Source: Candidatus Omnitrophota bacterium
GTDB lineage: Bacteria > Omnitrophota > Gorgyraeia > Zapsychrales > Zapsychraceae
Reading direction: 5' to 3'
DNA: 64,000 nt
Assembly (NCBI GenBank): GCA_029261055.1
Contig: JAJDCA010000014.1
Coordinates: 143,984 to 207,983 of the forward strand
Each line of letters opens with the position of its first letter. Position 1 is the first letter of the stretch. Shown here piece by piece: positions 6,838-57,783 of this stretch. The notes beneath the pieces are model-generated. The model was not told the DNA's origin. It did not search any database and saw only the letters and a program-made list of their open reading frames with translations. The position numbers and the translations under genes were made by a program.

Positions 6838-6946
6838 ATTAAAGAAGCAAGAGGCAGAGAAGCAAGAAGCAAAGAATTAAGCAAATAAATTAATTTAGTT
6901 TTTGTTTTTTCTTTGCATCTTATTGCTTTACTTCTCTATTTCTTAA
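6838..6946. repeat. Copy A of a dispersed ~100-bp intergenic palindromic element with an AG-rich left arm and a CT-rich right arm
   Basis: The left arm aaagaagcaagaggcagagaagcaagaagcaaagaa and the right arm ttttttctttgcatcttattgctttacttctctatttctt are imperfect reverse complements. Related copies occur at 49670-49782, 50785-50890 and 55084-55178. This copy ends 15 nt before the exbB RBS and ATG. Confidence 0.6.
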
Positions 6947-40532: not shown

Positions 40533-40916
40533 ATGGAGAAAAGAATTTATTATCATGATACCGATGCTGGCGGGGTGGTTTATTACGGGAATTATTTAAA
40601 ATTTCTAGAAGAATCCCGCACAGAATTTCTTGAACAAAAAGGTTTAGATATTACTGCATTAGCCCAAGCAGGTTTTCATTATGCTGTTCGGAAATGTTCC
40701 ATTGTTTACAAGAGTCCGGCAAGGTATGGTGATGTTATTATTTGTGAGGCACAGTTAAAAAAAATAACAGCAGCACAGTTTATCTTTGATCAGAAAGTTT
40801 ATGAAAAAAATAGTAAACGTCTCCTCGTTGAGGCGGAAGTAACCCTCGTTAGTTTGTCTCGGGAATTTAAACCCATACCTATTCCTGCGGAAATAAAATT
40901 GAAACTACATAAATAA
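40533..40916 (+). CDS. Acyl-CoA thioesterase, YbgC/4HBT hotdog family
   Basis: 127 aa starting YHDTDAGGVVYYGNYLKFLEESRTEFL, which matches the YbgC signature. Confidence 0.75.
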   Translation: MEKRIYYHDTDAGGVVYYGNYLKFLEESRTEFLEQKGLDITALAQAGFHYAVRKCSIVYKSPARYGDVIICEAQLKKITAAQFIFDQKVYEKNSKRLLVEAEVTLVSLSREFKPIPIPAEIKLKLHK

Positions 40917-40930
40917 AGGCAGAAAACTCT

Positions 40931-43900
40931 ATGACTAATACGCAATCCAAGAAATTCTATTTTTTTATTTTTTTATTTTTCTTTTTGTCTGGAGCTACAG
41001 GACTTGTATATCAGGTCATCTGGGCCAAATATTTATCTAACATTTTTGGAAGTACAGCGTATGCCCATACAATTGTGTTAGCCGTGTTTATGGGAGGATT
41101 GGCGTATGGAAATTATTTGCTTGGTAGAATTGCAGATCGTTTTAAAGGGAATTTATTGTATTTGTATGGGGTGATTGAATTGATTATTGGCATTTATTGT
41201 ATGTTTTATCCTAATATTGCAAATTTACTGGAGACCGTCTATCAGAATATTGCTTGGCATTTTCATCTTTCATCAACCAGCAAAAGTCTATTGGCGTTAC
41301 AATTCTTTTTTAATAGTGTGAATATTTTTATTCCAACTATGTTGATGGGAGGGACCCTCCCGATTATGGCGAAATTTATTACACACAAGAAGACGGAAAT
41401 TCTCAATAAAATTTCTATCCTTTATTTTATTAATAGTGTAGGTGCTGTTTTTGGGAGCCTTCTTTGCGGTTTTTTTCTCATTCGACTATGGGGGTTAGAT
41501 ACAAGTATTTCCGTTGCTGCGAGTATTAATGTTTTAATAGGGTTTTTGAGTATCGGTATTTCTAAGAGGGGCGGGAGGGTTTTAGGCGCATCGGATGTAA
41601 CCGAACAAACTTCATCCGAAAGAGATGTAGCATTGGAAGAATATAAACCGTCTTTTCGAAAAATTATTATTTTTGCGATTGGGATGAGTGGTTTTGTATC
41701 CATGCTTTACGAGGTTATGTGGATCAGGACATTGACACAGCTTTTCGGTTCGTCAGTCTATTCCTTTTCTCTTGTTGTGGCCGCTTTTATTGCTGGAATA
41801 AGTTTGGGTAGCTGGTGGTTAGCTAAAAATGCAATAAAAATAAAAGAAAAATATTATTTCTTTGGGGTCGTGCAAGCTTTAATTGCCATCACAATGTGTT
41901 TTTGTGTGTTGAGCATTAATCATTTTACTGAATGGGTTTGGTTTTTGTACCAGACTTTTAATACAAGAGAGTTTGTTTATCCCATATTTCTCTTTGCAAA
42001 GTTTTTTCTCGTATTTTTGATATTATTGTTGCCGACATTTTTTATTGGGATCACATTGCCTTTGGCAGGGTCCATATGTGCGAAAAGTCTAAAAATTCTA
42101 GGACGGGACGTAGGTAATGTGTTTTCGATCAATACTTTGGGGGCTCTATTTGGCACCGCCATAGCCGGGCTTATTTTATTGCCCAATATTGGCATTCTTA
42201 ATAGTTTTTATATCGGGATATTGATTAATTTAATTTTGGCGCTAATCCTTTTTCTGAGTTTGCGGCAAAAGAAATCGTTGCGAAATGCTTTGGGTGTTTT
42301 CGTTGTTTTCATCAGCCTATTAATATTTCAGCCGTTAAGTTTAGATAATAACTTGATGTTGACAAGCCTTTTTCGTTACAAAGCAAACGGGCAAATTAAC
42401 TTTTCAGAATATTTTAATTTGATAACGAATAAAAGGAAAATTCTTTATTATAAAGAAGGGCTAAATGGCAACGTTGCTGTTACAAAGATGGGAGATCAGA
42501 AGACTTTGTTTATTAATGGCAAACCAGATGCTTCATCAACTGGGGATATGCCAACACAATTATTGTCAGGACATCTTCCCGCATTATTGCATAAAAATCC
42601 GCGTAAGGTTCTTGTCATTGGTTTTGGAAGTGGTGTAACGGTTGGCGCATTGACGCGGCATTCTTCTATTGAACAAATTGATGTTTTAGAAATTTCTCCT
42701 GCAGTGATCGGAGCTGGAAAATTTTTTAAAGAGGTTAATAATGATTGTCTGAATAATAAAAAAGTTAATGTTATTATTGATGACGCAAAGAATTTTCTTT
42801 CCATAAATAAAGAAAAATATGATCTTATAATTAGTGAACCAACAAATCCTTGGACCGCAGGGACGGCTTCTTTACTGACGGTTGAATCATTTAAACGCAT
42901 TAAAAAATCTTTAAAGGAAGGTGGAATTATTCTGCAATGGTTTCATACCTATGAAATGAGTAATGATTTATTTCGAAGCATTGGAGCGAGTTTTACACAT
43001 GTTTTTCCAAAAGTAAGTGTTTGGCAGCCGGCTAATGGGGATTGTTTTTTCATCGGAAGCATGGAAGGAATCGACGGGAACCCTTTTAGGATGCAAACAG
43101 CTATTCAACAAAATGATGAGGTTAAGCAAAGTTTAAGACAAATCCATGCAGACAATATTTACAGCATCTTAAGTACACAGGTTTTATCTGCTCAAAAAAC
43201 ATATGAATTGTTTTACCGGAAGGCATTATTAAATGAAGACCGTTACCCGATTATCGAATTTAATGCGCCTCGAGCTTTTTTTCTTCGTAAGAGAGTGACT
43301 CTTTTGCAGGAAGCAGATGAACGTATTCATTTTGACAAGGCTAACAGTCTTATTTTGTCGCAGTTTCTTTCCCAAAAAGAATTAAATAATCAAGACATTA
43401 TGGATGTGTATCATTTTATGAAGACATCGAGGGTTTCACTTGTGAACCCTTTTCTTGAACATTATTTAGATACATTACTTTCAATGTCAGAAGATAAAAT
43501 TTCAGAAAAATTATTTCTTGAAATAAAGAAAAATGAACAACAAAGTCGTATTCAAATGTTAGAAAGGCTTAAAGAATTAAAAACGGAAAACCCCAATTCG
43601 TATGCAACTTTTCAGGCTTACCGTAAGGGATTGCAACATGAATATTTAGTGCGCCGTTCAATTTTTTTCAAGAATGAGGAGATGTATCAAGAAATTGAAC
43701 AATTAATTCTTGAGGGGGTAAATACATATCATGAGCATAAATATGAGTTGATCCTTCAGCTAGCAGATTTTTTTGCAGATCAGCATGAATATGAAAAATC
43801 GTTAGAAAAATATTTTGAAATTATCGTTTCAGGGGCACAAAATAATACAACAGAAAATAAAGGAGTTGTGAAGGCTGCTTTATTGAGGGTGAAGGATATG

Positions 43901-44008
43901 AGTTTAAAATACAATGATGTCGGAAGTCTTGTTAAAGTACGTGAATTAGCCGTAAAAATTTTTCCTGATGACGAGCGATTACTTCGGGACATTAGAAAAA
44001 ATAATTAA
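40931..44008 (+). CDS. Large polytopic membrane protein with a spermidine/spermine synthase-like domain and a C-terminal helical domain
   Basis: 1025 aa. About 480 aa of MFS-like TM region, then an aminopropyltransferase/methyltransferase fold (VLVIGFGSGVTVGAL, IDVLEISPAVI, DLIISEPTNPW), then about 300 aa of helical repeats. Confidence 0.75.
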   Translation: MTNTQSKKFYFFIFLFFFLSGATGLVYQVIWAKYLSNIFGSTAYAHTIVLAVFMGGLAYGNYLLGRIADRFKGNLLYLYGVIELIIGIYCMFYPNIANLLETVYQNIAWHFHLSSTSKSLLALQFFFNSVNIFIPTMLMGGTLPIMAKFITHKKTEILNKISILYFINSVGAVFGSLLCGFFLIRLWGLDTSISVAASINVLIGFLSIGISKRGGRVLGASDVTEQTSSERDVALEEYKPSFRKIIIFAIGMSGFVSMLYEVMWIRTLTQLFGSSVYSFSLVVAAFIAGISLGSWWLAKNAIKIKEKYYFFGVVQALIAITMCFCVLSINHFTEWVWFLYQTFNTREFVYPIFLFAKFFLVFLILLLPTFFIGITLPLAGSICAKSLKILGRDVGNVFSINTLGALFGTAIAGLILLPNIGILNSFYIGILINLILALILFLSLRQKKSLRNALGVFVVFISLLIFQPLSLDNNLMLTSLFRYKANGQINFSEYFNLITNKRKILYYKEGLNGNVAVTKMGDQKTLFINGKPDASSTGDMPTQLLSGHLPALLHKNPRKVLVIGFGSGVTVGALTRHSSIEQIDVLEISPAVIGAGKFFKEVNNDCLNNKKVNVIIDDAKNFLSINKEKYDLIISEPTNPWTAGTASLLTVESFKRIKKSLKEGGIILQWFHTYEMSNDLFRSIGASFTHVFPKVSVWQPANGDCFFIGSMEGIDGNPFRMQTAIQQNDEVKQSLRQIHADNIYSILSTQVLSAQKTYELFYRKALLNEDRYPIIEFNAPRAFFLRKRVTLLQEADERIHFDKANSLILSQFLSQKELNNQDIMDVYHFMKTSRVSLVNPFLEHYLDTLLSMSEDKISEKLFLEIKKNEQQSRIQMLERLKELKTENPNSYATFQAYRKGLQHEYLVRRSIFFKNEEMYQEIEQLILEGVNTYHEHKYELILQLADFFADQHEYEKSLEKYFEIIVSGAQNNTTENKGVVKAALLRVKDMSLKYNDVGSLVKVRELAVKIFPDDERLLRDIRKNN

Positions 44009-48718: not shown

Positions 48719-49696
48719 ATGGTGATCCTTGGCATAGAAACATCTTGTGATGAAACAGCAGCGGCCGTTGTCAAAGATGGAAAAGAAGTTTTCTCCAATG
48801 TAGTCATGTCCAGCCTGAAAGAACATAAGAAATTTGGCGGGATTATTCCAGAGTTGGCGTCTCGGAGGCAGCTTGAATGGATTCAGACGGTTGTTAAACG
48901 GGCCCTAAAAGTAGCAGACCTTACATTAGACGATATTGATGCTGTTGCCGTGACATCACGGCCGGGGCTGATCGGATCTCTTTTAGTGGGTATTTCATTC
49001 AGTAGAGCTTTAAGTTTTTCTTTGAACAAACCGCTCATTAACGTCGATCACATCAAAGCCCATTTGTATGCAAATTTTTTAAGGCAATCATCTGCGGAAG
49101 AGTACCCACAATTACCGGTTGTGGGGTTGGTTGTTTCTGGCGGGCATACATCTTTGTACCATATCAAGAATTTTGATCAATTTAAACTTTTAGGGCAGAC
49201 ACGCGATGATGCGGTGGGAGAATCTTTTGACAAAGTCGCACGGATTTTAGACTTGGGGTATCCTGGTGGACCGGCCATTGACCGTTTGGCGAAAGGTGTT
49301 CAACCTACCGGGCAGATACGGTTTAAATGTGCTGATTTACCCAAGACGTATGATTTTAGTTTTAGCGGCATAAAGACGGCCGTTCTTTATTACGCTCGTG
49401 ATCACAAAACACAGAAGGATTTTGATGTGGCTGCCGTTGTCCAAGCATTTCAACAAATTGTTGTTTCTGTTTTGGTTAAGAAGAGTATTTATGCATGTCA
49501 AGAATTAAAGACCAAATCACTTGTCGTTGGTGGCGGTGTTGCGGCCAATTCGCTTCTTCGCAAACAACTCATGCACGAAGCAAAGTTGCAGGGCATAAAG
49601 GTATTTTTTCCATCAATGTCTTTATGTATGGATAATGCTGCGATGATTGCGGGATTAGGGTATTGGAGTAGGGAAAAGCAAGAAGCAAAGTTGTAA
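48719..49696 (+). CDS. tsaD: tRNA N6-threonylcarbamoyladenosine synthase TsaD (Kae1/Gcp family)
   Basis: ILGIETSCDETAAAVV, and HxxxH-type metal site residues (HIKAHLYA). Confidence 0.9.
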   Translation: MVILGIETSCDETAAAVVKDGKEVFSNVVMSSLKEHKKFGGIIPELASRRQLEWIQTVVKRALKVADLTLDDIDAVAVTSRPGLIGSLLVGISFSRALSFSLNKPLINVDHIKAHLYANFLRQSSAEEYPQLPVVGLVVSGGHTSLYHIKNFDQFKLLGQTRDDAVGESFDKVARILDLGYPGGPAIDRLAKGVQPTGQIRFKCADLPKTYDFSFSGIKTAVLYYARDHKTQKDFDVAAVVQAFQQIVVSVLVKKSIYACQELKTKSLVVGGGVAANSLLRKQLMHEAKLQGIKVFFPSMSLCMDNAAMIAGLGYWSREKQEAKL

Positions 49697-49782
49697 GAAG
49701 CAAGAGGCAAAGAGGTAAAAAAATAAATTTGATTTTTTGGTTTTTCTCTGCATCTTATTTCTTTGCTACTCTGTTTCTTTAA
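49670..49782. repeat. Copy B of the dispersed AG/CT palindromic element
   Basis: The left arm gaaaagcaagaagcaaagttgtaagaagcaagaggcaaagagg overlaps the last codons and stop of tsaD. The right arm tttttctctgcatcttatttctttgctactctgtttcttt is about 85% identical to the copy A right arm. The element ends at the mgtC RBS. Confidence 0.6.
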
Positions 49783-49796
49783 AGCGAGGAGGAGAT

Positions 49797-50246
49797 ATGT
49801 TTACAGGCACTACAGAAATATTTATTAAAATTATTTTGGCTATTGTATTAAGTGGCCTTATTGGTTTGGAACGGGAGCTTCGTCAGAAGGGGGCAGGATT
49901 ACGGACGCATATCCTTGTAGGTGTCGGTTCAACCCTTATTGTTTTGACGTCATTACATCTGTTTGATATGTACAAGGACGTAACCATTGTCGATCCTACG
50001 CGCATGATTACAGGAATTGTTACTGGGATTGGTTTTTTGTGTGCAGGGACCATTATTCGTTCTGGAGATCAGGTGAAAGGATTAACGACTGCAGCAACAC
50101 TTTGGATCGTTTCCGGTGTTGGAATAGCTGTTGGGGCAGGGCATTACAGTGCTGCCACCGTTGTTTCCAGCATTGTTTGTCTTGTTTTAATTATTGTTAG
50201 GAGTCTTGAAATAAAAATTGCTAAGAAAGTTAGACATCGTCATTGA
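49797..50246 (+). CDS. mgtC: MgtC/SapB-family membrane protein (MgtC domain only)
   Basis: IILAIVLSGLIGLERELRQKGAGLRTHILVGVGSTL with four or five TM segments. Start placed at ATG 49797 behind the RBS aggagg. The ORF-track start at 49737 reads through the repeat element. Confidence 0.75.
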   Translation: MFTGTTEIFIKIILAIVLSGLIGLERELRQKGAGLRTHILVGVGSTLIVLTSLHLFDMYKDVTIVDPTRMITGIVTGIGFLCAGTIIRSGDQVKGLTTAATLWIVSGVGIAVGAGHYSAATVVSSIVCLVLIIVRSLEIKIAKKVRHRH

Positions 50247-50261
50247 GCAGGAGGGTAAACT

Positions 50262-50780
50262 ATGGGATTAAGACATCGAAAACAGTCACGTGAAACTGAA
50301 GAAGATAAGACGATTGAAATTAGTGCTCAGATGCAGGGGTCACTGGTATTTAAAGATCCGATTGATTTGAAGATAAATGGCAATTTTGATGGGAGCCTGG
50401 AAGCCAGAGGGACGGTTACGATTGGAGAAACATCTAGCGTTGAGGCTGATGTCAGTGCAGACAATATTGTCATTGCGGGAAAGATTACAGGCAATATTAA
50501 GGCGAGCAAAATGTTGGTGCTTATGCCAACAGCTGTCTTAAAAGGAGACATTTCGACACCCAAGTTGAATATTGTTGAAGGCGCCATTTTTCATGGCAAT
50601 TGTCAAATGGTGGATGATTTATTAGGGATTGATGAAGTGTCGAGATATCTTGAAATTGACATTAATGAAATTGAAGAGCTCGCAAAATCTGGTCGTATCC
50701 CTGGGTTAAAAAAGGGAGAAGATTGGAAATTTGAACGCAATCAAATCGACAATTGGGCTTCTTCGGGAAAATTGAAATAA
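50262..50780 (+). CDS. Bactofilin-domain protein with a C-terminal excisionase-type (HTH_17-like) helix-turn-helix
   Basis: Residues about 20-120 are beta-helix bactofilin repeats (GTVTIGETSSVEADVSADNIVIAGKITGNIKASKMLVLMPTAVLKGDISTPKLNIVEGAIFHGN). The C-terminus VSRYLEIDINEIEELAKSGRIPGLKKGEDWKFERNQIDNW fits the excisionase-family HTH pattern. Confidence 0.7.
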   Translation: MGLRHRKQSRETEEDKTIEISAQMQGSLVFKDPIDLKINGNFDGSLEARGTVTIGETSSVEADVSADNIVIAGKITGNIKASKMLVLMPTAVLKGDISTPKLNIVEGAIFHGNCQMVDDLLGIDEVSRYLEIDINEIEELAKSGRIPGLKKGEDWKFERNQIDNWASSGKLK

Positions 50781-50784
50781 TAGA

Positions 50785-50890
50785 ATAAAAGAAGCAAAGG
50801 TGTAAAGAGGCAAGATGCAGAGACAAAAAAGTCAGTAGAGATTTTAAATCTTTGCTTCTTGTTTCTTATTCCTCTGCTTCTCTAAAAAAA
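50785..50890. repeat. Copy C of the dispersed AG/CT palindromic element
   Basis: aaagaagcaaaggtgtaaagaggcaagatgcagagacaaaaaa ... ctttgcttcttgtttcttattcctctgcttctctaaaaaaa. Ends directly at the ATG of the following gene. Confidence 0.6.
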
Positions 50891-51193
50891 ATGACGGCAT
50901 CCCAATTCATATCCGTAAGAGAAACAGCCCAAATACTTTCTGTATCTGAGAAGAAAGTGATGGAAATTATTGCCGACCGAAAGTTGCAAGCCTACCGCAT
51001 TGCCAATAAATTTTTACGTCTCAAAAAAGCCGATGTATTGTTTTTGCGTAATTCCGGCAACATCGCCACCGAAACCATGGCTCACGCATACACCTCCTCC
51101 GAAAAAATAAAAGACTTTTTCTATTTTAACGACTTTTACCTACTCTCCGCCGTCTTCGCCAGCGGCTTGCTGTACGTCATATTTTTTACATAA
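50891..51193 (+). CDS. Small tail-anchored protein: N-terminal excisionase-type HTH plus a C-terminal TM helix
   Basis: MTASQFISVRETAQILSVSEKKVMEIIADRKLQAYRIANKFLRLKKADV (HTH_17-like), then a linker and the C-terminal helix LLSAVFASGLLYVIFF. ATG at 50891 preferred over the TTG at 50852, which lies inside the repeat. Confidence 0.5.
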   Translation: MTASQFISVRETAQILSVSEKKVMEIIADRKLQAYRIANKFLRLKKADVLFLRNSGNIATETMAHAYTSSEKIKDFFYFNDFYLLSAVFASGLLYVIFFT

Positions 51194-51283: not shown

Positions 51284-54200
51284 ATGAAAAAAATGTGTAA
51301 AATAATCATTTTTCGTGTTTTTGTGTGGTTAATCTTTTTTATCTTTATGGTTCAAGGGATAGGGCCTTTGCCATTGTCCCATGCTCAGACATCTATGCCT
51401 ATCGAAGGTTCTGGTGTGCAAGGTTTACGTTTGGGGTTAACACCAATGTTTACACCTGTTTTGCTTAAAGGGATTAAAATTTTCCCGAGTAATCCATTTC
51501 AGTTTGAGTTTATGGTGGGTGCGGGCAATACGGTTGTGCAGGGTGATTTACTCAAAAAAGAATCATCCCGGCTTGTTAAATACTTTTTAACATCCCTTAC
51601 AGTCCCGGATGCAGATTTGTGGGTTAATCTTTCTCCAGACGAACCAGATCGGATTATTCCCGAGCAATTTGGTCAAACCGAAATGGGACGTGACCTGTTG
51701 GCACAGGACTACAGGCTGAAACAAATCACAGCATCATTGATGTATCCGGAAGATGAGTTAGGGGAAGAATTTTGGGATCAGGTGTATGAGCAGGTGTATC
51801 AAGAATATGGAACAATGAATATTCCGATTGATATGCTTAACAAAGTTTGGATTGTGCCGGAGAAAGCCGTTGTCTACGAGAATGTAGAAATGAACACGGC
51901 ATTTGTGCTGGAATCACGGTTGCGTGTTATGCTGGAAGAAGATTATGTAGGGGAGGGGCTTGCCCCCTCCCGTATTACGGGCAGACGCAAGGCCCGCCCC
52001 TACAGTAATTCTAATAAGATTTCCACCGCAGTCATCCGTAAAATTATTATTCCCGCCATTGAACGCGAAGTTAATCATGGACAGGGATTTTCTAAATTAC
52101 GCCAAATTTACCATTCCTTGATTCTTGCCACATGGTTTAAGCGCAATCTTAAGAAGTCTATTTTGAGTCAGATCTATGTGGGTCAAAATAAAATTACAGG
52201 TGTAGATATCCATGACAAACAAGCGAAAGATAAACTTTACCATCAATATTTAAAGGCCTTTCAGAAGGGGGCATACAACTACATCAAAGAAGATTACGAC
52301 CCGGTTACTCAGCAAATCGTACCCAGGAAGTATTTTTCAGGAGGGATTGAGTTGGCGATGCTTTCTTCAGGAAAAAAAGTTTTTGAGGCATTAGATGCGG
52401 CCATGCAGGTTACGAAAGAAATTTCGGATCAGTTGTTAAAAGAAATAACAGGGAAAACAGCAAGTTTTAAAGTACCTGTAAAGATTCTTCCAGAATCGGG
52501 GAAGGACACAAAAGGGACAAATTTAGGAATTTTTACAGCAAAAAAACAAAAGAAATTTAGAAATATTATTAATCCTAAAAAAGTAAAAACAGCGGAAGAT
52601 TTAGTCCGCATTATTGAGCAAATAAAAAAGGATAATATCCCAAAGGAAAGAAATTATTCCAAATACAGCCGCGTTTTAATAACCGGAATATCCATTCTTT
52701 CGCATGAATTGTACCAGCCATACCTTAATGATTTAGCCCGTATTAAGCTGAATGAGCTTAATACATTGGAAATTGACATCCAGGAATCTGACTTTAATTG
52801 GACAAAAGATATGCTGCATAGATTGCAAGTTTTAGCCAATTTTATCCCAACCATCGAAAATCCTAATGAGGACTTATTTATTGATGTTTTTGCAGGTTTT
52901 ACGGATGAACAGATAAAGATACTAGCAAATTCAGGGGATTTTCTGGATTTACAATTAAGTAAAAATTGTGTGCATCAATGTCTGTTTTGTAATGTTTCAA
53001 AGAATACGATACAAGGGGCCCCACGGCATATGCCATTTTCTCTTGCCATCAAAATAGCAAAGCGGATTCGTCGAGAAGGGCAATCTAATGTAAGTTTATA
53101 TCGGAAGAGCGACCCTTTGCATTATCATGACAAGGTCATTAATGCCACGTATGGTGATGTTGCTAGGCACTTAATTCCACTAGGGTATTATCTTTCTACA
53201 ATAACGCATGGGGATACAGGTGTTTTAGGGGAAGAGAATATGCGAGAAATTGTAAAAAGGTTTCCTCCATCCTTGTGGGGGCTCGAATTTAGTTTAAATG
53301 CTTATTATGCGAATGTAAAAAGGTATGCAATCAAAAAGGTGAATGGTGAAATAGATGCTGCGGAGGATGATGAAGTTAGGCAAAAACTTGTAAAGCCATA
53401 TGTGGATAATTTTGCTTCATTATTAGTAGAGCTTATTCCACAGGTTGAAGTAGACATAAGAGATCTTTTTTATGGTAAAAAAGTCGAGAAAATTTTGGAA
53501 GGGGCTGGTTTGCAGTTTGCGCTATCTGTTGTCAAAGAAATGCAATCTGTGCAAAATAAAATTTGGGAAGATGTCGGTAAAATTGTTTTTGAAAAAACAG
53601 GAAAATATATTCCTGTAAAGCATGATTTTGAATTTACAAGTGGCATTCGTTTTACTTATGATATGGTTTGGGAAAGTGATGCTGTATCATTTTTAAAAGA
53701 GTTAGGTGTTAAGGAAGATATTATTAGAGGCATTAATAAAAGTACACAAAGAGGGTTAGATGATCGTACTGAAGGCGAAAATTTTGTTTTACAGATTAAT
53801 ACAAATGGTTCTTTGTCATTACGAGTTGCAGAGGCTGAGGATCTTCGATTTAGAACCTTTGAAGAAATGTTTACGAGCGCTGATGCGGAAGGATTTCGCT
53901 CTTTTTTAGAGGTTATTAAAATTGTTCTTAAAACAAATTCTTTTAAATTTGATAAACAAATGGATGCAAAAGTATTAAGAAAAGATGTTAGTAAGGGGGT
54001 GCTTAAAAAATTATTTAAGAATGCTCTTAATTCCTCGGAAGATATTGAGAAATTCTTAATTAATAGAAGTTATTTGGTGAAAGGTTCAACACTTCAAACA
54101 TTCCACTATTTTGAAGTATTATTTGGTTTTTTTTATTCTAAAGAAGACATGTTGGCTGATTTGAAAAATAAGAAGTTTGAAGATATGTTTGAGAAATTAA

Positions 54201-54757
54201 AAAAAGTGCCTTTTCCTATTGGGGTAGACTTTTTTGTTAAGTTTAAACAAAAACAGTTTTTAGATAGGTATTCTTACCGAATTATTAAGGATCAGCATCC
54301 AAGATATCCGAGAAATATTAATCAATCAGTTCGTCATTTCAATTTGTCAAAAAATGTATTTTCCTCATTAAGAGAAAATAATCCTCTTGAAATTGAATAT
54401 GAAAAGTTAGAACGCCCGTCATTTATTGATGAAAGCAACCAAACTGCTTTTTATGATTCGGCACTTCTTGCAGACGGGCTTAATGAGAAATTTGGCGGGA
54501 TTGATTTGACTGCGGATAGTTTGCCTTTGCAGGCACGTGGAGAGGGAATTGAGTTTAAGTTTCCTTCTAACAGTAATATTCCTTGTTTCGATGATGACAA
54601 CGACGGTACCTGTGACCGTATTGATGTAGAAGGGCTTGCTACTATGTCCATCACGGGATTTCGGCCGGAGTTTTTTGAAATTGTGCCGGTGAATAGTGTG
54701 TCGGGATGGTTGGGCATTTCAGTGCAACGACCAACCATCCCAGATCTGTCTTTATGA
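51284..54757 (+). CDS. Giant hypothetical protein (1157 aa) with an N-terminal signal or anchor sequence and a central CX3CX2C motif
   Basis: Long uninterrupted ORF. N-terminus MKKMCKIIIFRVFVWLIFFIFMVQG. About 560 aa in: SKNCVHQCLFCNV (CX3CX2C), followed about 40 aa later by SDPLHY, which recalls the radical-SAM GGEPL position. No other family is recognisable by eye. Confidence 0.6.
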   Translation: MKKMCKIIIFRVFVWLIFFIFMVQGIGPLPLSHAQTSMPIEGSGVQGLRLGLTPMFTPVLLKGIKIFPSNPFQFEFMVGAGNTVVQGDLLKKESSRLVKYFLTSLTVPDADLWVNLSPDEPDRIIPEQFGQTEMGRDLLAQDYRLKQITASLMYPEDELGEEFWDQVYEQVYQEYGTMNIPIDMLNKVWIVPEKAVVYENVEMNTAFVLESRLRVMLEEDYVGEGLAPSRITGRRKARPYSNSNKISTAVIRKIIIPAIEREVNHGQGFSKLRQIYHSLILATWFKRNLKKSILSQIYVGQNKITGVDIHDKQAKDKLYHQYLKAFQKGAYNYIKEDYDPVTQQIVPRKYFSGGIELAMLSSGKKVFEALDAAMQVTKEISDQLLKEITGKTASFKVPVKILPESGKDTKGTNLGIFTAKKQKKFRNIINPKKVKTAEDLVRIIEQIKKDNIPKERNYSKYSRVLITGISILSHELYQPYLNDLARIKLNELNTLEIDIQESDFNWTKDMLHRLQVLANFIPTIENPNEDLFIDVFAGFTDEQIKILANSGDFLDLQLSKNCVHQCLFCNVSKNTIQGAPRHMPFSLAIKIAKRIRREGQSNVSLYRKSDPLHYHDKVINATYGDVARHLIPLGYYLSTITHGDTGVLGEENMREIVKRFPPSLWGLEFSLNAYYANVKRYAIKKVNGEIDAAEDDEVRQKLVKPYVDNFASLLVELIPQVEVDIRDLFYGKKVEKILEGAGLQFALSVVKEMQSVQNKIWEDVGKIVFEKTGKYIPVKHDFEFTSGIRFTYDMVWESDAVSFLKELGVKEDIIRGINKSTQRGLDDRTEGENFVLQINTNGSLSLRVAEAEDLRFRTFEEMFTSADAEGFRSFLEVIKIVLKTNSFKFDKQMDAKVLRKDVSKGVLKKLFKNALNSSEDIEKFLINRSYLVKGSTLQTFHYFEVLFGFFYSKEDMLADLKNKKFEDMFEKLKKVPFPIGVDFFVKFKQKQFLDRYSYRIIKDQHPRYPRNINQSVRHFNLSKNVFSSLRENNPLEIEYEKLERPSFIDESNQTAFYDSALLADGLNEKFGGIDLTADSLPLQARGEGIEFKFPSNSNIPCFDDDNDGTCDRIDVEGLATMSITGFRPEFFEIVPVNSVSGWLGISVQRPTIPDLSL

Positions 54758-55069
54758 TTTCTTTTCTAATACTTTTGTCAATTCCCCGCTATTGTGCAGT
54801 TCTATGAGGATGTCACAACCGCCGACAAATTCGCCGTTGGCGTAGAGTTGGGGGATGGTAGGCCAGTCGGAGTATTCTTTAATACCTTCACGAATGTCTT
54901 GGTCATCAAAGATGTTGAATGTTTCAAATTTAACTTTGTATTGGTCAAGGATATCCACCGCCGTTGCCGAAAATCCACATTGAGGAAAGTCGGGTGTGCC
55001 TTTCATGTAGAGAAAGATGGCATTGGATTTGATTTGGTCTTCTATTTTTTGTTTAAGTTCATCGGTCAT
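54752..55069 (-). CDS. grxD: Monothiol glutaredoxin (Grx4/GrxD family, CGFS active site)
   Basis: 105 aa containing FLYMKGTPDFPQCGFS and DILIELHNSGEL. Confidence 0.85.
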   Translation of the reverse strand: MTDELKQKIEDQIKSNAIFLYMKGTPDFPQCGFSATAVDILDQYKVKFETFNIFDDQDIREGIKEYSDWPTIPQLYANGEFVGGCDILIELHNSGELTKVLEKKS

Positions 55070-55083
55070 TGTGTCTCCTTTTT

Positions 55084-55178
55084 TAAAAGAAGCAAAGATG
55101 TAAAGAGGTAAGAGGTAGAGAAAAAATCATGTTGATGAAGCTTTTCTCTGCTTCTTGCGCCTTTGCTTCTTGTTTCTT
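55084..55178. repeat. Copy D of the dispersed AG/CT palindromic element
   Basis: aaaagaagcaaagatgtaaagaggtaagaggtagagaaaaaa ... cttttctctgcttcttgcgcctttgcttcttgtttctt. Lies between the bolA stop and the grx RBS on the minus strand. Its arms are nearly identical to copy C but arranged in a different order. Confidence 0.55.
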
Positions 55179-55182
55179 AACA

Positions 55183-55443
55183 CTAGAATCCATATTGTGT
55201 TTTTACTTCATTCCATTTATTGGGGGTAAACGTCCTTAACCCTAGGGCATGGACGGATTGTTTGAATTCTTCCTTTAAAGGTTTCATGACCATTTGATGC
55301 TGCTTAACAAGAGGCAGGCCTTCAAAGTTGGGGCTGATGACAATGGCTTCAAAATGCTGGCCGTCGTCTTTGGGTTCCATCACATGGGCCGTGGCACCTG
55401 TAACGGAGGATTCAATCATTTGTTTGAGGTCTTCTGACATCAT
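55183..55443 (-). CDS. bolA: BolA-family protein
   Basis: 86 aa with a BolA-like fold signature (IVISPNFEGLPLVKQHQMV...ALGLRTFTP). Adjacent to a CGFS glutaredoxin, its usual partner. Confidence 0.75.
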   Translation of the reverse strand: MMSEDLKQMIESSVTGATAHVMEPKDDGQHFEAIVISPNFEGLPLVKQHQMVMKPLKEEFKQSVHALGLRTFTPNKWNEVKTQYGF

Positions 55444-55477
55444 AAAATATTCCTTTCGAGTGAACCGTACACAAACC

Positions 55478-56425
55478 TCATGCAGACCCCCGAGGTTTGT
55501 GTCTGGTTACAAAGTCAATAACAGTATCTTCTAAACGGCCGTTGTTCAGCCGGTTGATTTCTTGTAAACAGGTAGGGGAGGTGACATTGACTTCGATGAG
55601 ATGATCACCGATTACGTCGATGCCTACAAAGTGCAACCCCAGTTTTTGTAAATGCGGTTTGAGAATTTGAATGATTGCCTCATCCCGCTTGGTTATTTCG
55701 GCGGGCATGGGTTTGCCGCCGGCAAAAAAATTGTTACGGTGTTCATCTTTTGCGTGCACACGCAATACCGCTCCGAGAGGGTCGCCATTAAGAAGAAGGA
55801 TGCGTTTATCGCCTTGGCTGGCTTCAGGTAAACATTGTTGCAGGATAATATCCTGAGCGCCATTGTGTGTTAAGGTTTCGATGATGACGCCAATATTTGT
55901 GTCGCCTTCACGGATACGAAAGATACCTTGGCCACCGTAGCCATTGATGGGCTTGGTGACGATTTCTTTTTCTTCAGATAAAAAGGCAAGGATGTCTGCT
56001 TTATTGCGTGTGATCAGGGTTCGGGGAATGAGCGAAGAAAATTGTGTCACCCAAATTTTCTCATTCGTCGTACGAATACCATTGGGGCTGTTCATGACAA
56101 GAATGCGTTCAGGCAATAAATCCAAGAGCCAGGTATTAAATAAATATTGAGCATCAAAAGGTGGATCATTGCGGATGAATACGGCATCAATGCTGTCTTC
56201 CGTTAAGGTAGCCATTTCATGTTGAATAAAGGGCTGTTCAGCGACTTGCTGGGGTGTGACTTCCGTGCAAGTAAAATGAAGTTTCCCATTTTTTTGTGTC
56301 AGTCCACCATTGTGGCAGGCATACACCTTGTGCCCTTTGCGATGGGCGCCGAGCATTAGAATAAACGATGTGTCTTTCTCCATGATGACGGTATGGAGAG
56401 GGTCCATGAGGAATACAAAATTCAT
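55478..56425 (-). CDS. gshB: Glutathione synthetase (prokaryotic ATP-grasp GshB)
   Basis: Aligns along its length with E. coli GshB: MDPLHTVIMEKDTSF, IRNDPPFD, LITRNKADILAF, GDKRILLLNGDP, VGIDVIGDHLIEVNVTSPTC. Confidence 0.9.
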   Translation of the reverse strand: MNFVFLMDPLHTVIMEKDTSFILMLGAHRKGHKVYACHNGGLTQKNGKLHFTCTEVTPQQVAEQPFIQHEMATLTEDSIDAVFIRNDPPFDAQYLFNTWLLDLLPERILVMNSPNGIRTTNEKIWVTQFSSLIPRTLITRNKADILAFLSEEKEIVTKPINGYGGQGIFRIREGDTNIGVIIETLTHNGAQDIILQQCLPEASQGDKRILLLNGDPLGAVLRVHAKDEHRNNFFAGGKPMPAEITKRDEAIIQILKPHLQKLGLHFVGIDVIGDHLIEVNVTSPTCLQEINRLNNGRLEDTVIDFVTRHKPRGSA

Positions 56426-57726
56426 TTTACATTTTCTTCCAGGCGAATAATTTCTCGATGCGCGGCAATGGCGGCAATACGGGCTAAAATGCGGTAGACG
56501 TCAAAAACATTGACATCATGATGAACTCCGCAGTCACCGTATTTACTGAGATGCGGACACATTTTTTTAAAGACCATGCCTTGGGCATTCAAATTGTCGC
56601 GCTGACCTTTACCGGCATGCGAACGGTAAAATCCACCGACAAGATTATTTTCAATTTGGTAAATGCACGCTTCACTGACTTCTTGTTCGATATTGTAAAT
56701 GGTGGACACCCCTTCCTGCAGAAGGAATCGGTCAATGATTTGTGCGCTTTTACCTTTGTACATCTTGTTACGATTTTTTCGGTTGAGCGTGAGAATATCT
56801 TTGGCATCCTCGATGGGAAGCACGCCCATGCCGTATGTTCCGGAATTTGATTTTAAAACAAGGTAAGGCTTTTCACTAATGTTGTGCTCTTTGTATTTGG
56901 CTTTAATATTGTTCAGTAAATCGGTAGCCGTATCAGCTAAAAGGGTGCGGTCATTTTCTTGATTAATGTTAACGTTGTTTACAACAGAGAATAAGCAGGA
57001 AAAAATCCAAGGGTCAACGTTAAGAATTTTGGCAAACTCTTCGATGAGATCTTTGGTGTGATCGAAATGATGCGACTTAAGGCGCGAATGCCAACCCGCC
57101 TGAATAGAAGGGTAGATCGGCACTTTAGCATTTTTTAAAACATCCGGAATTCCAGTCGTCAAATCATTATTCATGATCATCAAATCAAATTGTTGATGTC
57201 CTGCTTCGTAATCCGCTAAGATTTTTTTGAAACAGTGGATTTTAACGGGATGACCTGTGGCGGTCTCCAATTCAATCGCATGAGCCTTTTCACAAAAGCT
57301 TGGTTGAACGGTTAGAAAGGTTGCGATTTTGACATTGAATCCAGCACGTTCAATGATTTGCTGTAGGATGCGGACGTTTTCCAAATACCAGGCATTACGT
57401 GTGTGCTCTTCGGCAATAATGAGAATATTCTTACATTGCGGCATACGATTAAGGACTGCTTTACGGAGAAATTCGACGGAGTCAGTCAGACCGTGTTCAC
57501 AGAGATTGTTAAATCCGGCGGGAAAAATATTGGTATCCACGACGGCCATCTTAAATCCAGCATTACGAATGTCCACGGAAGAATAGAGAGGGAGTTCTTT
57601 GGCTTCTTCGTACGATTCCAGGAAGCGAAGGATTTCAGCTTGTTTATTTTGGATGCTTTCAATCAGTTGAGGCATCGGGTGCGTTGAATGCAAATGTGAT
57701 GTTTTATTCATGCCTGTATTATCCAT
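56422..57726 (-). CDS. gshA: Putative glutamate--cysteine ligase (compact GshA-family type); assigned mainly from context and size
   Basis: 434 aa, overlapping gshB by 4 nt (translational coupling). It does not resemble E. coli GshA; the call rests on its similarity, from memory, to the about 400-aa bacterial GshA-type family. Confidence 0.5.
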   Translation of the reverse strand: MDNTGMNKTSHLHSTHPMPQLIESIQNKQAEILRFLESYEEAKELPLYSSVDIRNAGFKMAVVDTNIFPAGFNNLCEHGLTDSVEFLRKAVLNRMPQCKNILIIAEEHTRNAWYLENVRILQQIIERAGFNVKIATFLTVQPSFCEKAHAIELETATGHPVKIHCFKKILADYEAGHQQFDLMIMNNDLTTGIPDVLKNAKVPIYPSIQAGWHSRLKSHHFDHTKDLIEEFAKILNVDPWIFSCLFSVVNNVNINQENDRTLLADTATDLLNNIKAKYKEHNISEKPYLVLKSNSGTYGMGVLPIEDAKDILTLNRKNRNKMYKGKSAQIIDRFLLQEGVSTIYNIEQEVSEACIYQIENNLVGGFYRSHAGKGQRDNLNAQGMVFKKMCPHLSKYGDCGVHHDVNVFDVYRILARIAAIAAHREIIRLEENVK

Positions 57727-57783
57727 AAAATAAGGGGATTGTCGAGGCTAAAATGTTGGGGCTAACCGTAAACGAACCAGGTA

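What the first reader, a model, noticed from the sequence alone, without database searches (positions are those of the whole stretch)
50262..51193. Bactofilin fused to an excisionase-type HTH, followed by a tail-anchored HTH paralog
The product of 50262-50780 has a canonical bactofilin beta-helix core and then a C-terminal domain matching the HTH_17/excisionase DNA-binding pattern (xxRYLEIDINEIEELAKSGRIPGLKKGEDWKFERNQIDNW). The next gene encodes a related HTH at its N-terminus and a single C-terminal TM helix. Bactofilins are polymer-forming scaffolds, and known DNA links are indirect (for example through PadC-ParB in Myxococcus). A bactofilin with its own DNA-binding domain, paired with a membrane-tethered HTH, suggests a compact DNA-positioning or tethering module, or a nucleoid-associated scaffold. 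A role in regulating the downstream giant gene is also possible.
Basis: partly seen in the sequence, partly recalled or inferred. Interest (0 to 1): 0.7.

Follow-up and report, generated by a model that had tools for sequence, protein, structure and literature searches.

The report
Bactofilin–winged-helix fusion with membrane-anchored partner
Omnitrophota bacteria carry a conserved gene pair, a filament-forming bactofilin ending in an excisionase-type winged-helix domain and a small membrane-anchored protein with the same kind of domain; the pair looks like an undescribed membrane scaffold, and whether it holds DNA is unproven.

Summary
ORF 50262-50780 (172 aa) is Pfam Bactofilin plus HTH_17. 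The next gene (ATG 50891-51193, 100 aa) is an HTH_17 winged helix with a C-terminal transmembrane tail.

The pair is not a one-off. The partner follows the fusion in every clade-1 locus with enough downstream sequence (about 144), often with an ATGA overlap. All named hits are Omnitrophota, and the fusion evolves about as slowly as the neighbouring housekeeping genes. The polymerisation phenylalanine (F110) is invariant, and the N-terminus resembles the bactofilin membrane-targeting peptide.

Direct DNA binding by the bactofilin is doubtful. Its winged helix is acidic (pI 4.7), and the Arg position of the recognition helix is Glu/Asp. Residue 136 of that helix covaries in charge with residue 40 at the partner's wing tip, including two charge-reversed cases. 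The two winged helices also co-evolve beyond the housekeeping background.

Best reading: a membrane-bound bactofilin polymer whose winged helix docks the tail-anchored partner, with DNA possibly held by the partner's basic wing.

The downstream 1157-aa gene is not conserved next to the pair. No integrase or mobile-element context was seen. I found no paper on this architecture; the closest precedent is BacR/BacEF of Bacillus subtilis. Verdict: new variant of a known kind.

The parts
49797..50246 (+). MgtC/SapB-family membrane protein (149 aa, membrane domain only), a frequent upstream neighbour of the pair
   Evidence: Pfam MgtC 6.3e-38. It lies directly upstream of the fusion in 42 of 66 loci with enough upstream sequence. 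It also does so in the divergent locus L076, which has a different wider context.
50250..50255 (+). Shine-Dalgarno GGAGGG of the bactofilin fusion gene
   Evidence: Read from the sequence. It lies 15 nt after the mgtC stop, and the scan found no convincing promoter or terminator nearby.
50262..50780 (+). BacHTH: bactofilin plus C-terminal winged helix, 172 aa (whole CDS including stop)
   Evidence: There are 685 homologues; the best 120 all carry both domains, are 169-182 aa long and are 60-72% identical (apart from the window's own 100% entry).
50262..50309 (+). N-terminal tail (residues 1-16): basic head MGLRHRK followed by an acidic stretch; candidate membrane-targeting peptide
   Evidence: The family consensus is MA[LF]R.[RK][RK]. 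Divergent members start MMGKKDKR, MLGKSKKV, MAFKKK or MFGKTNKQ. The published bactofilin MTS consensus is MFSKKKK (PMC12448750). pLDDT is below 50.
50313..50606 (+). Bactofilin beta-helix core (residues 18-115), including the invariant F110
   Evidence: Pfam; AlphaFold2 pLDDT 91-98; Foldseek matches to BacA 2n3d and TtBac 6rib. F110 aligns with F105 of TtBac and with the second Phe of GAFFQG in BacA and is invariant in 68 of 68 sequences.
50619..50765 (+). Excisionase/MerR-type winged helix (residues 120-168): strand, H123-130, H134-143 ('recognition' helix), wing 149-158, H159-167
   Evidence: Pfam HTH_17 32.4 bits; pLDDT 84-88. Foldseek matches BldC 6ama (rmsd 1.7), RdfS, Pukovnik Xis, RacA, Tn916 Xis and CbpM. 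Net charge is -3.8 and pI 4.7.
50790..50881 (+). Long hairpin in the spacer between the two genes; one copy of a genome-specific intergenic repeat, not a conserved part of the module
   Evidence: MFE -40.7 kcal/mol, z -7.2. Related copies lie at about 6841-6937, 49684-49767 and 55087-55178. No Rfam family matches. In other genomes the spacer runs from -4 to about 120 bp, mostly under 50.
50891..51193 (+). Tail-anchored winged-helix partner, 100 aa (whole CDS including stop)
   Evidence: 652 homologues, mostly 100-101 aa. It is not called in the public annotation of this contig.
50906..51055 (+). Partner winged helix (residues 6-55) with a strongly basic wing (R36, R43, K45, K46) and a variable wing tip at residue 40
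   Evidence: Pfam HTH_17; AlphaFold2 secondary structure. Foldseek matches Pukovnik Xis 4j2n (rmsd 0.9, 36% identity), BldC, RacA and CbpM. Wing charge is +4.9 and domain pI 8.9 in the main clade.
51116..51190 (+). Aromatic juxtamembrane motif DFFYFNDFY (residues 75-83; this feature starts at F76) and C-terminal transmembrane helix (residues 82-100)
   Evidence: Per-column conservation. All 128 partners have a hydrophobic C-terminal segment with at most 6 residues after it, and 111 of 128 match the aromatic motif, most of the rest carrying close variants. pLDDT is 92-94.

Best explanation
The two genes encode one membrane-associated scaffold.

BacHTH polymerises like other bactofilins and lies on the cytoplasmic face of the membrane through its short basic and hydrophobic N-terminus. 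Each subunit displays a folded winged-helix domain instead of the usual disordered C-terminal tail. That domain is mainly a docking module. Its acidic 'recognition' helix contacts the basic beta-wing of the winged helix on the co-translated, tail-anchored partner. The polymer therefore clusters the partner in the membrane.

The output I consider most likely is tethering or organising chromosomal DNA at the membrane through the partner's basic wing, possibly with bactofilin and DNA competing for it.

Shown here: the domain architecture, predicted folds, the conserved polymerisation residue, the tail anchor, strict co-occurrence with overlapping start and stop codons, phylum-wide conservation, and charge covariation between the two domains.

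Inferred: polymerisation, membrane binding, the physical contact, and any DNA binding. I put the physical pairing at about 0.6 and involvement of DNA at about 0.45.
For: Architecture and folds.

Polymerisation residue: F110 is invariant and aligns with TtBac F105 and the BacA GAFFQG motif.

Linkage:
- The partner is immediately downstream in 74 of 74 loci.
- In the enlarged set of 155 loci with a complete BacHTH ORF, 141 partners were found automatically and 3 by hand. The other 11 are 6 contig ends and 5 loci of a separate clade.
- 20 spacers are a 4-bp ATGA overlap.
- The two families are about the same size, 685 and 652 clusters.
- The pair persists in divergent lineages whose wider context differs (L076, L077).

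Core function: identity to the window protein averages 59.7% for BacHTH, against 62-66% for TsaD, CtpA and GatB in the same loci.

Docking rather than DNA reading:
- The BacHTH winged helix has net charge -3.8 and pI 4.7, and its recognition helix -2.4. The family reads D-x-x-E-I-E-E-L where BldC has PKTVTRW and RacA has AKTVQRW.
- The partner's wing is +4.9.
- Residue 136 of BacHTH and wing-tip residue 40 of the partner pair as E with K/R in 21 of 21 cases, and as A/S/T with Q otherwise. This state changes at least 2-3 times on a housekeeping-gene tree.
- The pair is K with E in L077 and L132, and there is no same-charge pair among 128.
- After removing housekeeping divergence, the partial correlation of distances is 0.39 between the two winged helices and about 0 with the partner's TM tail.

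Membrane: the N-termini resemble the published MTS.

Precedents: bactofilins bind and sequester the HTH protein BacR at the membrane (PMC13649987). Membrane-bound clients contribute to bactofilin membrane association (PMC12448750).
Against:
- The covariation rests on few independent events. Residue 138 does not follow the charge rule (R138 occurs with E, K and R at position 40). The global mutual-information ranking is dominated by clade splits.
- Net charge complementarity holds in the main clade (-3.8 against +2.2) but not in the divergent clade (-1.8 against -0.75).
- The second fusion clade (P0225) keeps an acidic helix without having a tail-anchored partner.
- The partner also has Asp at the canonical Arg position of its recognition helix, so its DNA binding is uncertain too.
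- BacHTH has its own MTS-like N-terminus, so the partner is not needed simply as an anchor.
Confidence: 0.4

Rival explanations
1. Both winged helices bind DNA directly. The bactofilin polymer presents a regular array of DNA-binding domains, and the tail-anchored paralogue ties the same DNA to the membrane. This would be a compact chromosome anchoring, positioning or nucleoid-scaffold device.
For: - Both domains pass the HTH_17 threshold.
- Their closest solved folds are DNA-bound BldC, RacA, Xis and MerR-family proteins. RacA is itself a chromosome-to-pole anchor.
- The wing keeps conserved basic residues (K145, K150, K156, R159, K161 in BacHTH; R36, R43, K45, K46 in the partner).
- Polymer avidity could compensate for weak monomer affinity (inference).
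- The charge-covarying 136-40 contact could be a head-to-tail contact on DNA, as in BldC or Xis arrays. That comparison is from my own recollection of those structures and was not tested here.
- The second fusion clade sits next to a ParA/MipZ-like ATPase, a protein class that works on the nucleoid.
Against: - The BacHTH winged helix is acidic (pI 4.7). Its recognition helix carries Glu/Asp where the aligned DNA-bound relatives have Lys, Thr or Arg.
- The acidic residue at the canonical Arg position (139) is kept in the divergent lineages as well.
- In the divergent clade both domains are net acidic.
- No DNA target or repeat was identified near the locus.
Confidence: 0.25
2. An envelope or membrane-homeostasis scaffold with no DNA involved. 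The winged helices are purely protein-binding modules. The partner's conserved aromatic FYFNDFY transmembrane segment engages a membrane protein such as the adjacent MgtC-like protein, and the bactofilin organises that complex.
For: - MgtC lies directly upstream in 42 of 66 loci and again in the divergent L076.
- Other neighbours are envelope-related: the CtpA S41 protease in the main clade, and TPR-PDZ and SPOR proteins in L076 and L077.
- The intramembrane-adjacent N-D motif is conserved in almost all partners.
- MerR-like winged helices can serve as protein-binding domains, as in the CbpM and TniQ structures among the fold matches.
- Both recognition helices lack the canonical Arg.
Against: - One third of loci have no adjacent mgtC.
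- The partner has no periplasmic part, so it cannot act on the wall directly.
- The partner's wing is strongly basic and invariant, which is more typical of nucleic-acid binding.
- The partner's TM tail does not co-evolve with BacHTH.
Confidence: 0.17
3. A BacR-like regulatory partner switch. The tail-anchored protein is a membrane-tethered transcription regulator whose DNA-binding surface is occupied by the bactofilin's acidic winged helix. Changes in polymer state release it to act on DNA.
For: - In B. subtilis the co-encoded HTH protein BacR is bound by the bactofilins BacE/F. That binding reduces its DNA binding and holds it at the membrane (PMC13649987).
- An acidic helix contacting the partner's wing tip would compete with DNA (inference).
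Against: - A tail-anchored protein cannot leave the membrane without proteolysis, and no cleavage system is evident.
- The pair sits inside a long housekeeping gene string with no dedicated promoter or operator signal and no conserved downstream target gene.
- The 1:1 coupled expression and housekeeping-like conservation suggest a structural role rather than a regulatory one.
Confidence: 0.1
4. The HTH_17 domains mark a mobile element or defence system (excisionase or MADS-type), or the pair regulates the 1157-aa gene downstream.
For: There are weak generic hits: NCBIfam antiphage_MADS1 at 37.5 bits, PADLOC mad1 at 15.8 bits, and PHROG excisionase families. The large gene directly follows the pair in this window.
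Against: - All these hits are far below family cut-offs (MADS1 cut-off is 80) and cover only the generic winged helix.
- Synteny is housekeeping (gatCAB-ctpA-tsaD-(mgtC)-pair-SNase-tilS-ftsH-folP-cdaA), with no integrase in the flanks examined.
- A homologue of the large gene's N-terminus lies within 5 kb in only 4 other loci (L044, L045, L057, L065).
Confidence: 0.02

Closest known systems
Canonical bactofilins (Caulobacter crescentus BacA, Thermus thermophilus TtBac)
   Same: Both have the PF04519 beta-helix core (89.7 bits) and the fold matches 2n3d and 6rib. The C-terminal interface phenylalanine is conserved (F110 aligns with TtBac F105). Both have a short basic and hydrophobic N-terminus resembling the MTS.
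   Different: The usual disordered C-terminal tail is replaced by a folded 50-residue winged helix joined by a very short linker. The N-terminal peptide is MA[LF]R.[RK][RK] rather than MFSKKKK. The gene is always followed by a tail-anchored winged-helix partner.
BacR (YhbD, DUF4004) with the bactofilins BacE/BacF of Bacillus subtilis (PMC13649987)
   Same: An HTH protein is genetically coupled to bactofilin genes and physically bound by the bactofilins at the membrane. That binding competes with its DNA binding.
   Different: BacR is a separate soluble protein of about 210 aa with a different HTH family (PF13171) and is encoded upstream. In Omnitrophota one winged helix is fused to the bactofilin and a second one is membrane-anchored. 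No DUF4004 hit was seen.
BacNOP-PadC-ParAB of Myxococcus xanthus
   Same: A bactofilin scaffold is linked to chromosome organisation. This rests on established knowledge and is cited in PMC12704722.
   Different: There the link to DNA is indirect, through the ParB-like adaptor PadC and through ParB/ParA. No DNA-binding-type fold is fused to the bactofilin and there is no tail-anchored partner.
RacA (with DivIVA) of Bacillus subtilis
   Same: A MerR/excisionase-like winged helix is attached to a self-assembling region and used to anchor DNA at a membrane site. RacA's DNA-binding domain is among the best fold matches (5i44).
   Different: RacA uses a coiled coil rather than a bactofilin, and its recognition helix is basic (AKTVQRW). 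It reaches the membrane through DivIVA rather than a TM tail. The RacA biology is from my own knowledge.
BldC, and the Xis and RdfS excisionases (small HTH_17/MerR-like winged helices)
   Same: They share the fold (rmsd 0.9-1.8 Å) and the same Pfam family.
   Different: Those are free small proteins that bind DNA. Here the domains are tethered to a polymer and to the membrane. There is no mobile-element context, and the key basic residues of the recognition helix are replaced by acidic ones.
CbpM, and the TniQ N-terminal winged helix
   Same: Fold matches in which a MerR-like winged helix is seen in a protein-protein complex (3ucs, 6pig, 9gs9). These are precedents for a docking role.
   Different: They are unrelated systems with no sequence-level relationship beyond the fold.

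Membership tests
Bactofilin (PF04519) | Profile match above the curated threshold | tested here: met
   89.7 bits against a cut-off of 27.9, residues 18-115.
Bactofilin (PF04519) | Right-handed beta-helix core resembling solved bactofilins | tested here: met
   AlphaFold2 pLDDT 91-98 over the core. Foldseek top hits are BacA 2n3d (TMt 0.83) and TtBac 6rib.
Bactofilin (PF04519) | Conserved hydrophobic residue of the C-terminal polymerisation interface (TtBac F105, BacA F130) | tested here: met
   F110 aligns with it and is invariant in 68 of 68 sequences.
Bactofilin (PF04519) | Nucleotide-independent polymerisation into filaments | not testable with these tools
   Needs purified protein and electron microscopy, or expression with a fluorescent tag.
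Bactofilin (PF04519) | N-terminal membrane-targeting sequence (consensus MFSKKKK) | tested here: inconclusive
   The main clade has MA[LF]R.[RK][RK]. The divergent clade has MMGKKDKR, MLGKSKKV, MAFKKK or MFGKTNKQ. This is a similar pattern of hydrophobic and basic residues but not the consensus (PMC12448750).
HTH_17 / excisionase-type winged helix (PF12728) | Profile match above the curated threshold | tested here: met
   BacHTH 32.4 bits and partner 27.3 bits against a cut-off of 27. The NCBIfam 'excise' domain TIGR01764 scores 27.7 and 26.9 against 28.8, just below.
HTH_17 / excisionase-type winged helix (PF12728) | Strand-helix-turn-helix-wing-helix fold | tested here: met
   Secondary structure. 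Foldseek matches to BldC, Xis, RdfS and RacA at rmsd 0.9-2.6 Å.
HTH_17 / excisionase-type winged helix (PF12728) | Basic or polar DNA-contacting residues on the recognition helix (K/T/R as in BldC, RacA, Xis) | tested here: not met
   BacHTH has D-x-x-E-I-E-E-L, net -2.4. The partner has S-E-K-K-V-M-D-L, net -1.4, with Asp at the Arg position.
HTH_17 / excisionase-type winged helix (PF12728) | DNA binding | not testable with these tools
   Needs EMSA, anisotropy or DAP-seq.
Excisionase / recombination directionality factor | Encoded in a mobile element next to an integrase | tested here: not met
   Conserved housekeeping synteny, with no integrase in the 8 kb flanks of L002, L004, L006 and L008.
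BacR / DUF4004 (PF13171) | DUF4004 domain match | tested here: not met
   No such hit at E up to 1 for either protein.
MamR (NCBIfam NF040990) | Equivalog score above cut-off | tested here: not met
   The partner scores 20.8 bits against a cut-off of 100, and only the winged helix aligns.
MADS defence system MAD1 (NF047737 / PADLOC mad1) | Equivalog score above cut-off, and a defence-island context | tested here: not met
   37.5 bits against a cut-off of 80 and PADLOC 15.8 bits. The context is housekeeping.

The most novel reading that the evidence does not exclude
Bactofilin filaments that themselves carry DNA-binding domains, working with a membrane-anchored winged-helix partner, form a nucleotide-independent apparatus that anchors or partitions the chromosome in the ultra-small cells of Omnitrophota. 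This would be a cytoskeletal polymer that binds DNA directly, without a ParB-type adaptor.
Probability: 0.15. Interest if true: 0.85.

Novelty: new variant of a known kind. Interest (0 to 1): 0.6.

Why it matters
Bactofilins are known as scaffolds whose disordered tails recruit clients. Here a whole phylum has replaced the tail with a folded nucleic-acid-type domain and coupled it to a dedicated tail-anchored partner, and the fusion is conserved about as well as the neighbouring housekeeping genes (the partner slightly less).

This gives a defined two-protein system of 172 and 100 aa that can be tested in E. coli or in vitro. The questions it addresses are how bactofilins engage clients, whether a bactofilin can be wired to DNA directly, and how uncultivated, very small Omnitrophota cells organise their interior. 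The charge-covarying residue pair (136 and 40) is a concrete mutational prediction.

It also shows that automatic names such as 'excisionase family DNA binding protein' are misleading for more than 1,300 database protein clusters.

Tried and rejected
- Foldseek against afdb50, to get the taxonomic spread of the architecture: library unavailable.
- phmmer of the single winged-helix sequence against the PDB: no hits. A profile of the domain was needed.
It was repeated with 5 sequences.
- Global inter-protein mutual information on 128 pairs: dominated by substitutions that separate the two deep clades, so it cannot serve as contact prediction. Only the 136-40 pair within the main clade, plus the charge-reversed cases, was kept as suggestive.
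- Residue 138 against residue 40 as a second salt bridge: rejected, because R138 occurs with E, K and R at position 40.
- Promoter and terminator scan around the pair: counts close to the shuffled expectation (5 against 4.5 promoter-like, 3 against 1.5 terminator-like) and no convincing site on the coding strand.
- Direct and inverted repeats as candidate binding sites: only the spacer hairpin was found, and it is a genome-wide repeat.
- Defence-system or phage membership: only generic HTH hits.
- MamR relationship: far below cut-off.
- Rfam family for the hairpin: none.
- Net charge complementarity as a general rule: it holds only in the main clade.
Full report

Yes. The + strand carries an ORF at 50262-50780 (172 aa), preceded by GGAGGG six bases upstream.

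Pfam places Bactofilin (PF04519) on residues 18-115 (E 1.5e-25, 89.7 bits, cut-off 27.9). It places HTH_17 (PF12728) on residues 120-168 (32.4 bits, cut-off 27). The NCBIfam 'excise' domain scores just below its cut-off (27.7 against 28.8).

The next gene is real, but it starts at ATG 50891 rather than the TTG at 50852. The 100-aa product aligns end to end with 100-aa products in the same position elsewhere, at 56-66% identity. It hits HTH_17 on residues 7-49 (27.3 bits, cut-off 27).

Its last 19 residues are the most hydrophobic window of the protein (family mean Kyte-Doolittle 2.39), and nothing follows them. It is therefore a tail-anchored protein with a cytoplasmic winged helix.

This gene is not called in the public annotation of this contig.

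**2. How widespread is it?**

- A word-indexed search of 5.8 billion proteins found 685 relatives of the fusion. The best 120 all carry both domains and are 169-182 aa long. Apart from the window's own entry they are 60-72% identical. Those with names are from Candidatus Omnitrophica/Omnitrophota.
- A scan of one genome per GTDB species found 66 full-length copies. All are in Omnitrophota MAGs, although some ENA records are labelled 'uncultured Planctomycetales'. The scan also found one plain bactofilin in a Nitrospiraceae MAG.
- An exhaustive HMMER search of 1.84 billion cluster representatives found 18 clusters at E ≤ 1e-30. About 25 clusters at 50% identity cover the whole length including the winged helix, down to 26-45% identity. 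Those tested keep both Pfam domains.
- The most distant clade (P0225, 26% identity) is also Omnitrophota; its relative P0403 comes from 'Omnitrophica WOR_2'.

As far as these data go, the architecture is restricted to the phylum and is general within it.

Across loci, identity to the window protein averages 59.7% for the fusion and 57.6% for the partner. In the same loci it is 65.6% for GatB, 65.1% for CtpA and 62.1% for TsaD. The fusion therefore evolves about as slowly as these housekeeping genes, and the partner slightly faster.

**3. The two genes form one unit.**

- In all 74 loci first collected, the tail-anchored gene follows the fusion directly.
- Spacers range from -31 to 120 bp. Twenty are the 4-bp ATGA overlap, and most are under 50 bp.
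- A metagenome scan aimed at the divergent branch added 80 loci.
- Of 155 loci with a complete fusion ORF, 141 had the partner by automated search. Three more (L027, L042, L163) have it on inspection. Six end too soon to tell. Five belong to the separate P0225 clade.
- The partner family has 652 clusters, about one per fusion cluster.
- The pair also persists where the wider context differs. L076 reads batD-TPR-mgtC-fusion-partner-TPR/PDZ. L077 reads giant gene-SPOR-TPR/PDZ-fusion-partner.

**4. Genomic context.**

In the main clade the order is gatC-gatA-gatB-ctpA-tsaD-(mgtC)-fusion-partner, then variable genes, then SNase-tilS-ftsH-folP-cdaA.

An MgtC/SapB-type membrane protein lies directly upstream in 42 of 66 loci; otherwise tsaD does. 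No integrase or mobile-element gene appears in the flanks examined.

The 1157-aa gene that follows the pair in this window (51284-54757; weak radical-SAM hit) is not there in most genomes. A homologue of its N-terminus lies within 5 kb in only four other loci. Regulation of that gene by the pair is not supported.

**5. Structure.**

*Fusion.* The AlphaFold2 model has mean pLDDT 86.7. It shows a beta-helix over residues 17-116, followed after a 3-4 residue link by strand 120-122, helix 123-130, helix 134-143, a two-stranded wing over 149-158, and helix 159-167.
- The core matches C. crescentus BacA (2n3d) and T. thermophilus bactofilin (6rib).
- The C-terminal domain matches BldC (rmsd 1.7 Å), RdfS, Pukovnik Xis, RacA, Tn916 Xis, MerR-family regulators and CbpM.
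- F110, in the motif EGAIFxG, aligns with F105 of TtBac and with the second Phe of GAFFQG in BacA. Replacing it with Arg gives the mutants F105R and F130R. F105R is the crystallised mutant (6ria), and F130R is among the BacA variants analysed in PMC12448750. That these substitutions prevent polymerisation is my own recollection.
- F110 is invariant in 68 of 68 sequences.

*Partner.* The model (pLDDT 77) has a winged helix over residues 6-55, a linker, and helices 69-79 and 81-99. The last helix is the membrane helix, with pLDDT above 90. Its best fold match is Pukovnik Xis (rmsd 0.9 Å, 36% identity), followed by BldC, RacA and CbpM.

An aromatic motif, DFFYFNDFY, precedes the membrane helix. 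It is conserved in 111 of 128 partners, with close variants in most of the rest.

The two winged helices are related at family level only (hhalign 94% probability, 10% identity).

**6. Does the bactofilin's winged helix bind DNA?**

This cannot be tested here, but the sequence argues against a classical reader.

- Across 68 orthologues the domain has net charge -3.8 and pI 4.7, and its 'recognition' helix (133-143) is -2.4.
- In profile alignments to solved DNA-bound relatives, the family reads D-x-x-E-I-E-E-L-A. BldC has D-P-K-T-V-T-R-W-A, RacA has S-A-K-T-V-Q-R-W-V and Pukovnik Xis has S-T-K-T-V-R-N-Y-I.
- The position that is Arg in BldC and RacA (139 here) is Glu or Asp in almost the whole family, including the divergent branch.
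- The wing keeps basic residues (K145, K150, K156, R159, K161).
- The partner is more basic in the main clade (domain +2.2, pI 8.9, wing +4.9), with invariant R36, R43 and K45. It too has Asp at the Arg position.
- In the divergent branch both domains are mildly acidic (-1.8 and -0.75).

**7. Evidence that the two winged helices touch.**

- In the main clade, residue 136 of the fusion (third residue of the recognition helix) and residue 40 of the partner (the wing tip, between strands 34-37 and 41-45) are perfectly associated. Glu pairs with Lys or Arg in 21 of 21 cases. Ala, Ser or Thr pairs with Gln.
- On a neighbour-joining tree of concatenated GatB, CtpA and TsaD, the Glu/Lys state appears in at least two, probably three, separate places.
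- In two divergent lineages the charges are reversed: K136 with E40 in L077 and L132. Among 128 pairs there is no same-charge combination.
- After regressing out housekeeping divergence, pairwise distances of the fusion's winged helix correlate with those of the partner's winged helix (partial r 0.39). They do not correlate with the partner's membrane tail (-0.04) or with the housekeeping residuals.

Caveats:
- The number of independent events is small.
- Residue 138 does not obey a charge rule.
- A global mutual-information ranking is dominated by substitutions that separate the two deep clades.

I treat the contact as suggested, not shown.

**8. Membrane association.**

The fusion has no hydrophobic segment. 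Its N-terminus is conserved as M-A-[L/F]-R-x-[R/K]-[R/K] in the main clade. In the divergent branch it reads MMGKKDKR, MLGKSKKV, MAFKKK or MFGKTNKQ.

This resembles the bactofilin membrane-targeting sequence (BacA MFSKQAKS; global consensus MFSKKKK), which combines hydrophobic residues at the start with two lysines (PMC12448750). Direct membrane binding is plausible but not established.

The same paper shows that a membrane-bound client (PbpC) contributes to membrane association of the polymer.

**9. What is known.**

Full-text searches found no paper that describes a bactofilin fused to an HTH. The term pairs searched were:
- bactofilin with HTH, Omnitrophota, Omnitrophica, excisionase, domain architecture or DNA-binding domain;
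- Omnitrophota with cytoskeleton.

The library covers open-access papers only.

The closest precedent is BacR (YhbD) of B. subtilis. It is a DUF4004 HTH protein encoded upstream of bacE/bacF. It binds DNA, is bound by the bactofilins, loses DNA binding when bound, and is held at the membrane by them (PMC13649987).

Other comparators:
- the BacNOP-PadC-ParAB system of Myxococcus, an indirect link to DNA;
- RacA, a MerR-like winged helix on a self-assembling protein that anchors DNA at the pole;
- BldC and Xis, which share the fold and bind DNA freely;
- CbpM and TniQ, which share the fold and are seen in protein complexes.

Weak hits to MamR, MADS1 and phage excisionase families cover only the generic winged helix and fall far below cut-offs.

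**10. Most likely mechanism and rivals.**

I propose a membrane-bound bactofilin polymer whose C-terminal winged helix is a docking domain for the winged helix of the co-translated tail-anchored partner. The polymer would then cluster the partner.

The most plausible output is tethering or organising DNA at the membrane through the partner's basic wing, possibly in competition with the bactofilin's acidic helix. My estimates are 0.6 for the pairing, 0.45 for DNA involvement and 0.4 for the whole model.

Rivals:
- A DNA-free envelope scaffold involving the MgtC-like neighbour (0.17).
- A BacR-like regulatory switch (0.1).
- A mobile-element or defence role, or regulation of the large downstream gene (0.02).

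**11. Novelty and interest.**

Both folds are known, and databases already annotate the proteins automatically. The following were not described in the literature I could search:
- the fused architecture;
- its obligatory tail-anchored partner;
- its phylum-wide, housekeeping-like conservation;
- the atypical acidic winged helix.

I classify it as a new variant of a known kind, with interest 0.6. A bactofilin specialist would find it unexpected, and it is directly testable with two small proteins. The function remains inferred, and the organisms are mostly uncultivated.

Noticed in passing
window 50790-50881; also about 6841-6937, 49684-49767 and 55087-55178: A genome-specific intergenic hairpin repeat of about 90-95 nt, with a purine-rich arm (AAAGAAGCAAAG...AGAGGCAAGA) and a pyrimidine-rich return arm. 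There are four copies in the window, all between genes. The copy between the two genes of the pair folds at -40.7 kcal/mol (z -7.2), and the copy between grx and bolA at -45 kcal/mol (z -6.3). No Rfam family matches. It explains why the spacer here is 110 nt, when most genomes have -4 to about 50.
   Followed up: partly
L079 8001-8567, L082 3754-4317, L083 3758-4321, L080 167-742: A second, small clade of bactofilin+HTH_17 proteins in Omnitrophota (26% identical to the window protein) has no tail-anchored partner. In L079, L082 and L083 it sits two unknown genes downstream of a ParA/MipZ-like ATPase that carries a C-terminal glycogen-binding module (AMPK1_CBM/CBM48). L079 also encodes a Volactin-family actin and a MamF/MmsF-like protein. 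L080 and L081 (contig starts just upstream, so the ATPase cannot be checked) have gas-vesicle genes 5 kb away. This may be a separate cargo-positioning system.
   Followed up: partly
window 51284-54757: A 1157-aa ORF with a hydrophobic N-terminal signal or anchor and a CVHQCLFC (CX3CX2C) motif that gives a sub-threshold Radical_SAM hit (23.5 bits, cut-off 29.5). Its first 400 residues or so have homologues 0.4-4.5 kb downstream of the pair in four other Omnitrophota loci (L044, L045, L057, L065). Function unknown.
   Followed up: partly
window 50891-51193: The tail-anchored partner gene is not called in the public gene table of this contig, and no 100%-identical protein is in the searched collection, although hundreds of orthologues are annotated elsewhere. 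It is probably an annotation miss, caused by the long structured spacer and the lack of a Shine-Dalgarno sequence before this ATG.
   Followed up: yes
window 40931-44008: A 1025-aa ORF that combines an MFS transporter domain (residues 14-339) with a spermine/spermidine synthase domain (547-696). It lies between the thioesterase gene (40533-40916) and the gatCAB genes; in L002, L004 and L006 the thioesterase and gatC genes are adjacent, with no gene between them.
   Followed up: no
window 54752-59025 (minus strand): Synteny with other Omnitrophota breaks after the pair. Instead of SNase-tilS-ftsH-folP-cdaA, this genome has a convergent block of glutaredoxin, BolA, glutathione synthetase (GshB), glutamate-cysteine ligase (GshA) and a sodium:dicarboxylate symporter.
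   Followed up: no
L076 6767-7768 and L077 4598-5569: In two divergent lineages a TPR+PDZ protein of about 325-333 aa lies next to the pair, downstream in L076 and upstream in L077, and L077 also has a SPOR-domain protein. This hints at a link to the cell envelope or division in those lineages.
   Followed up: no
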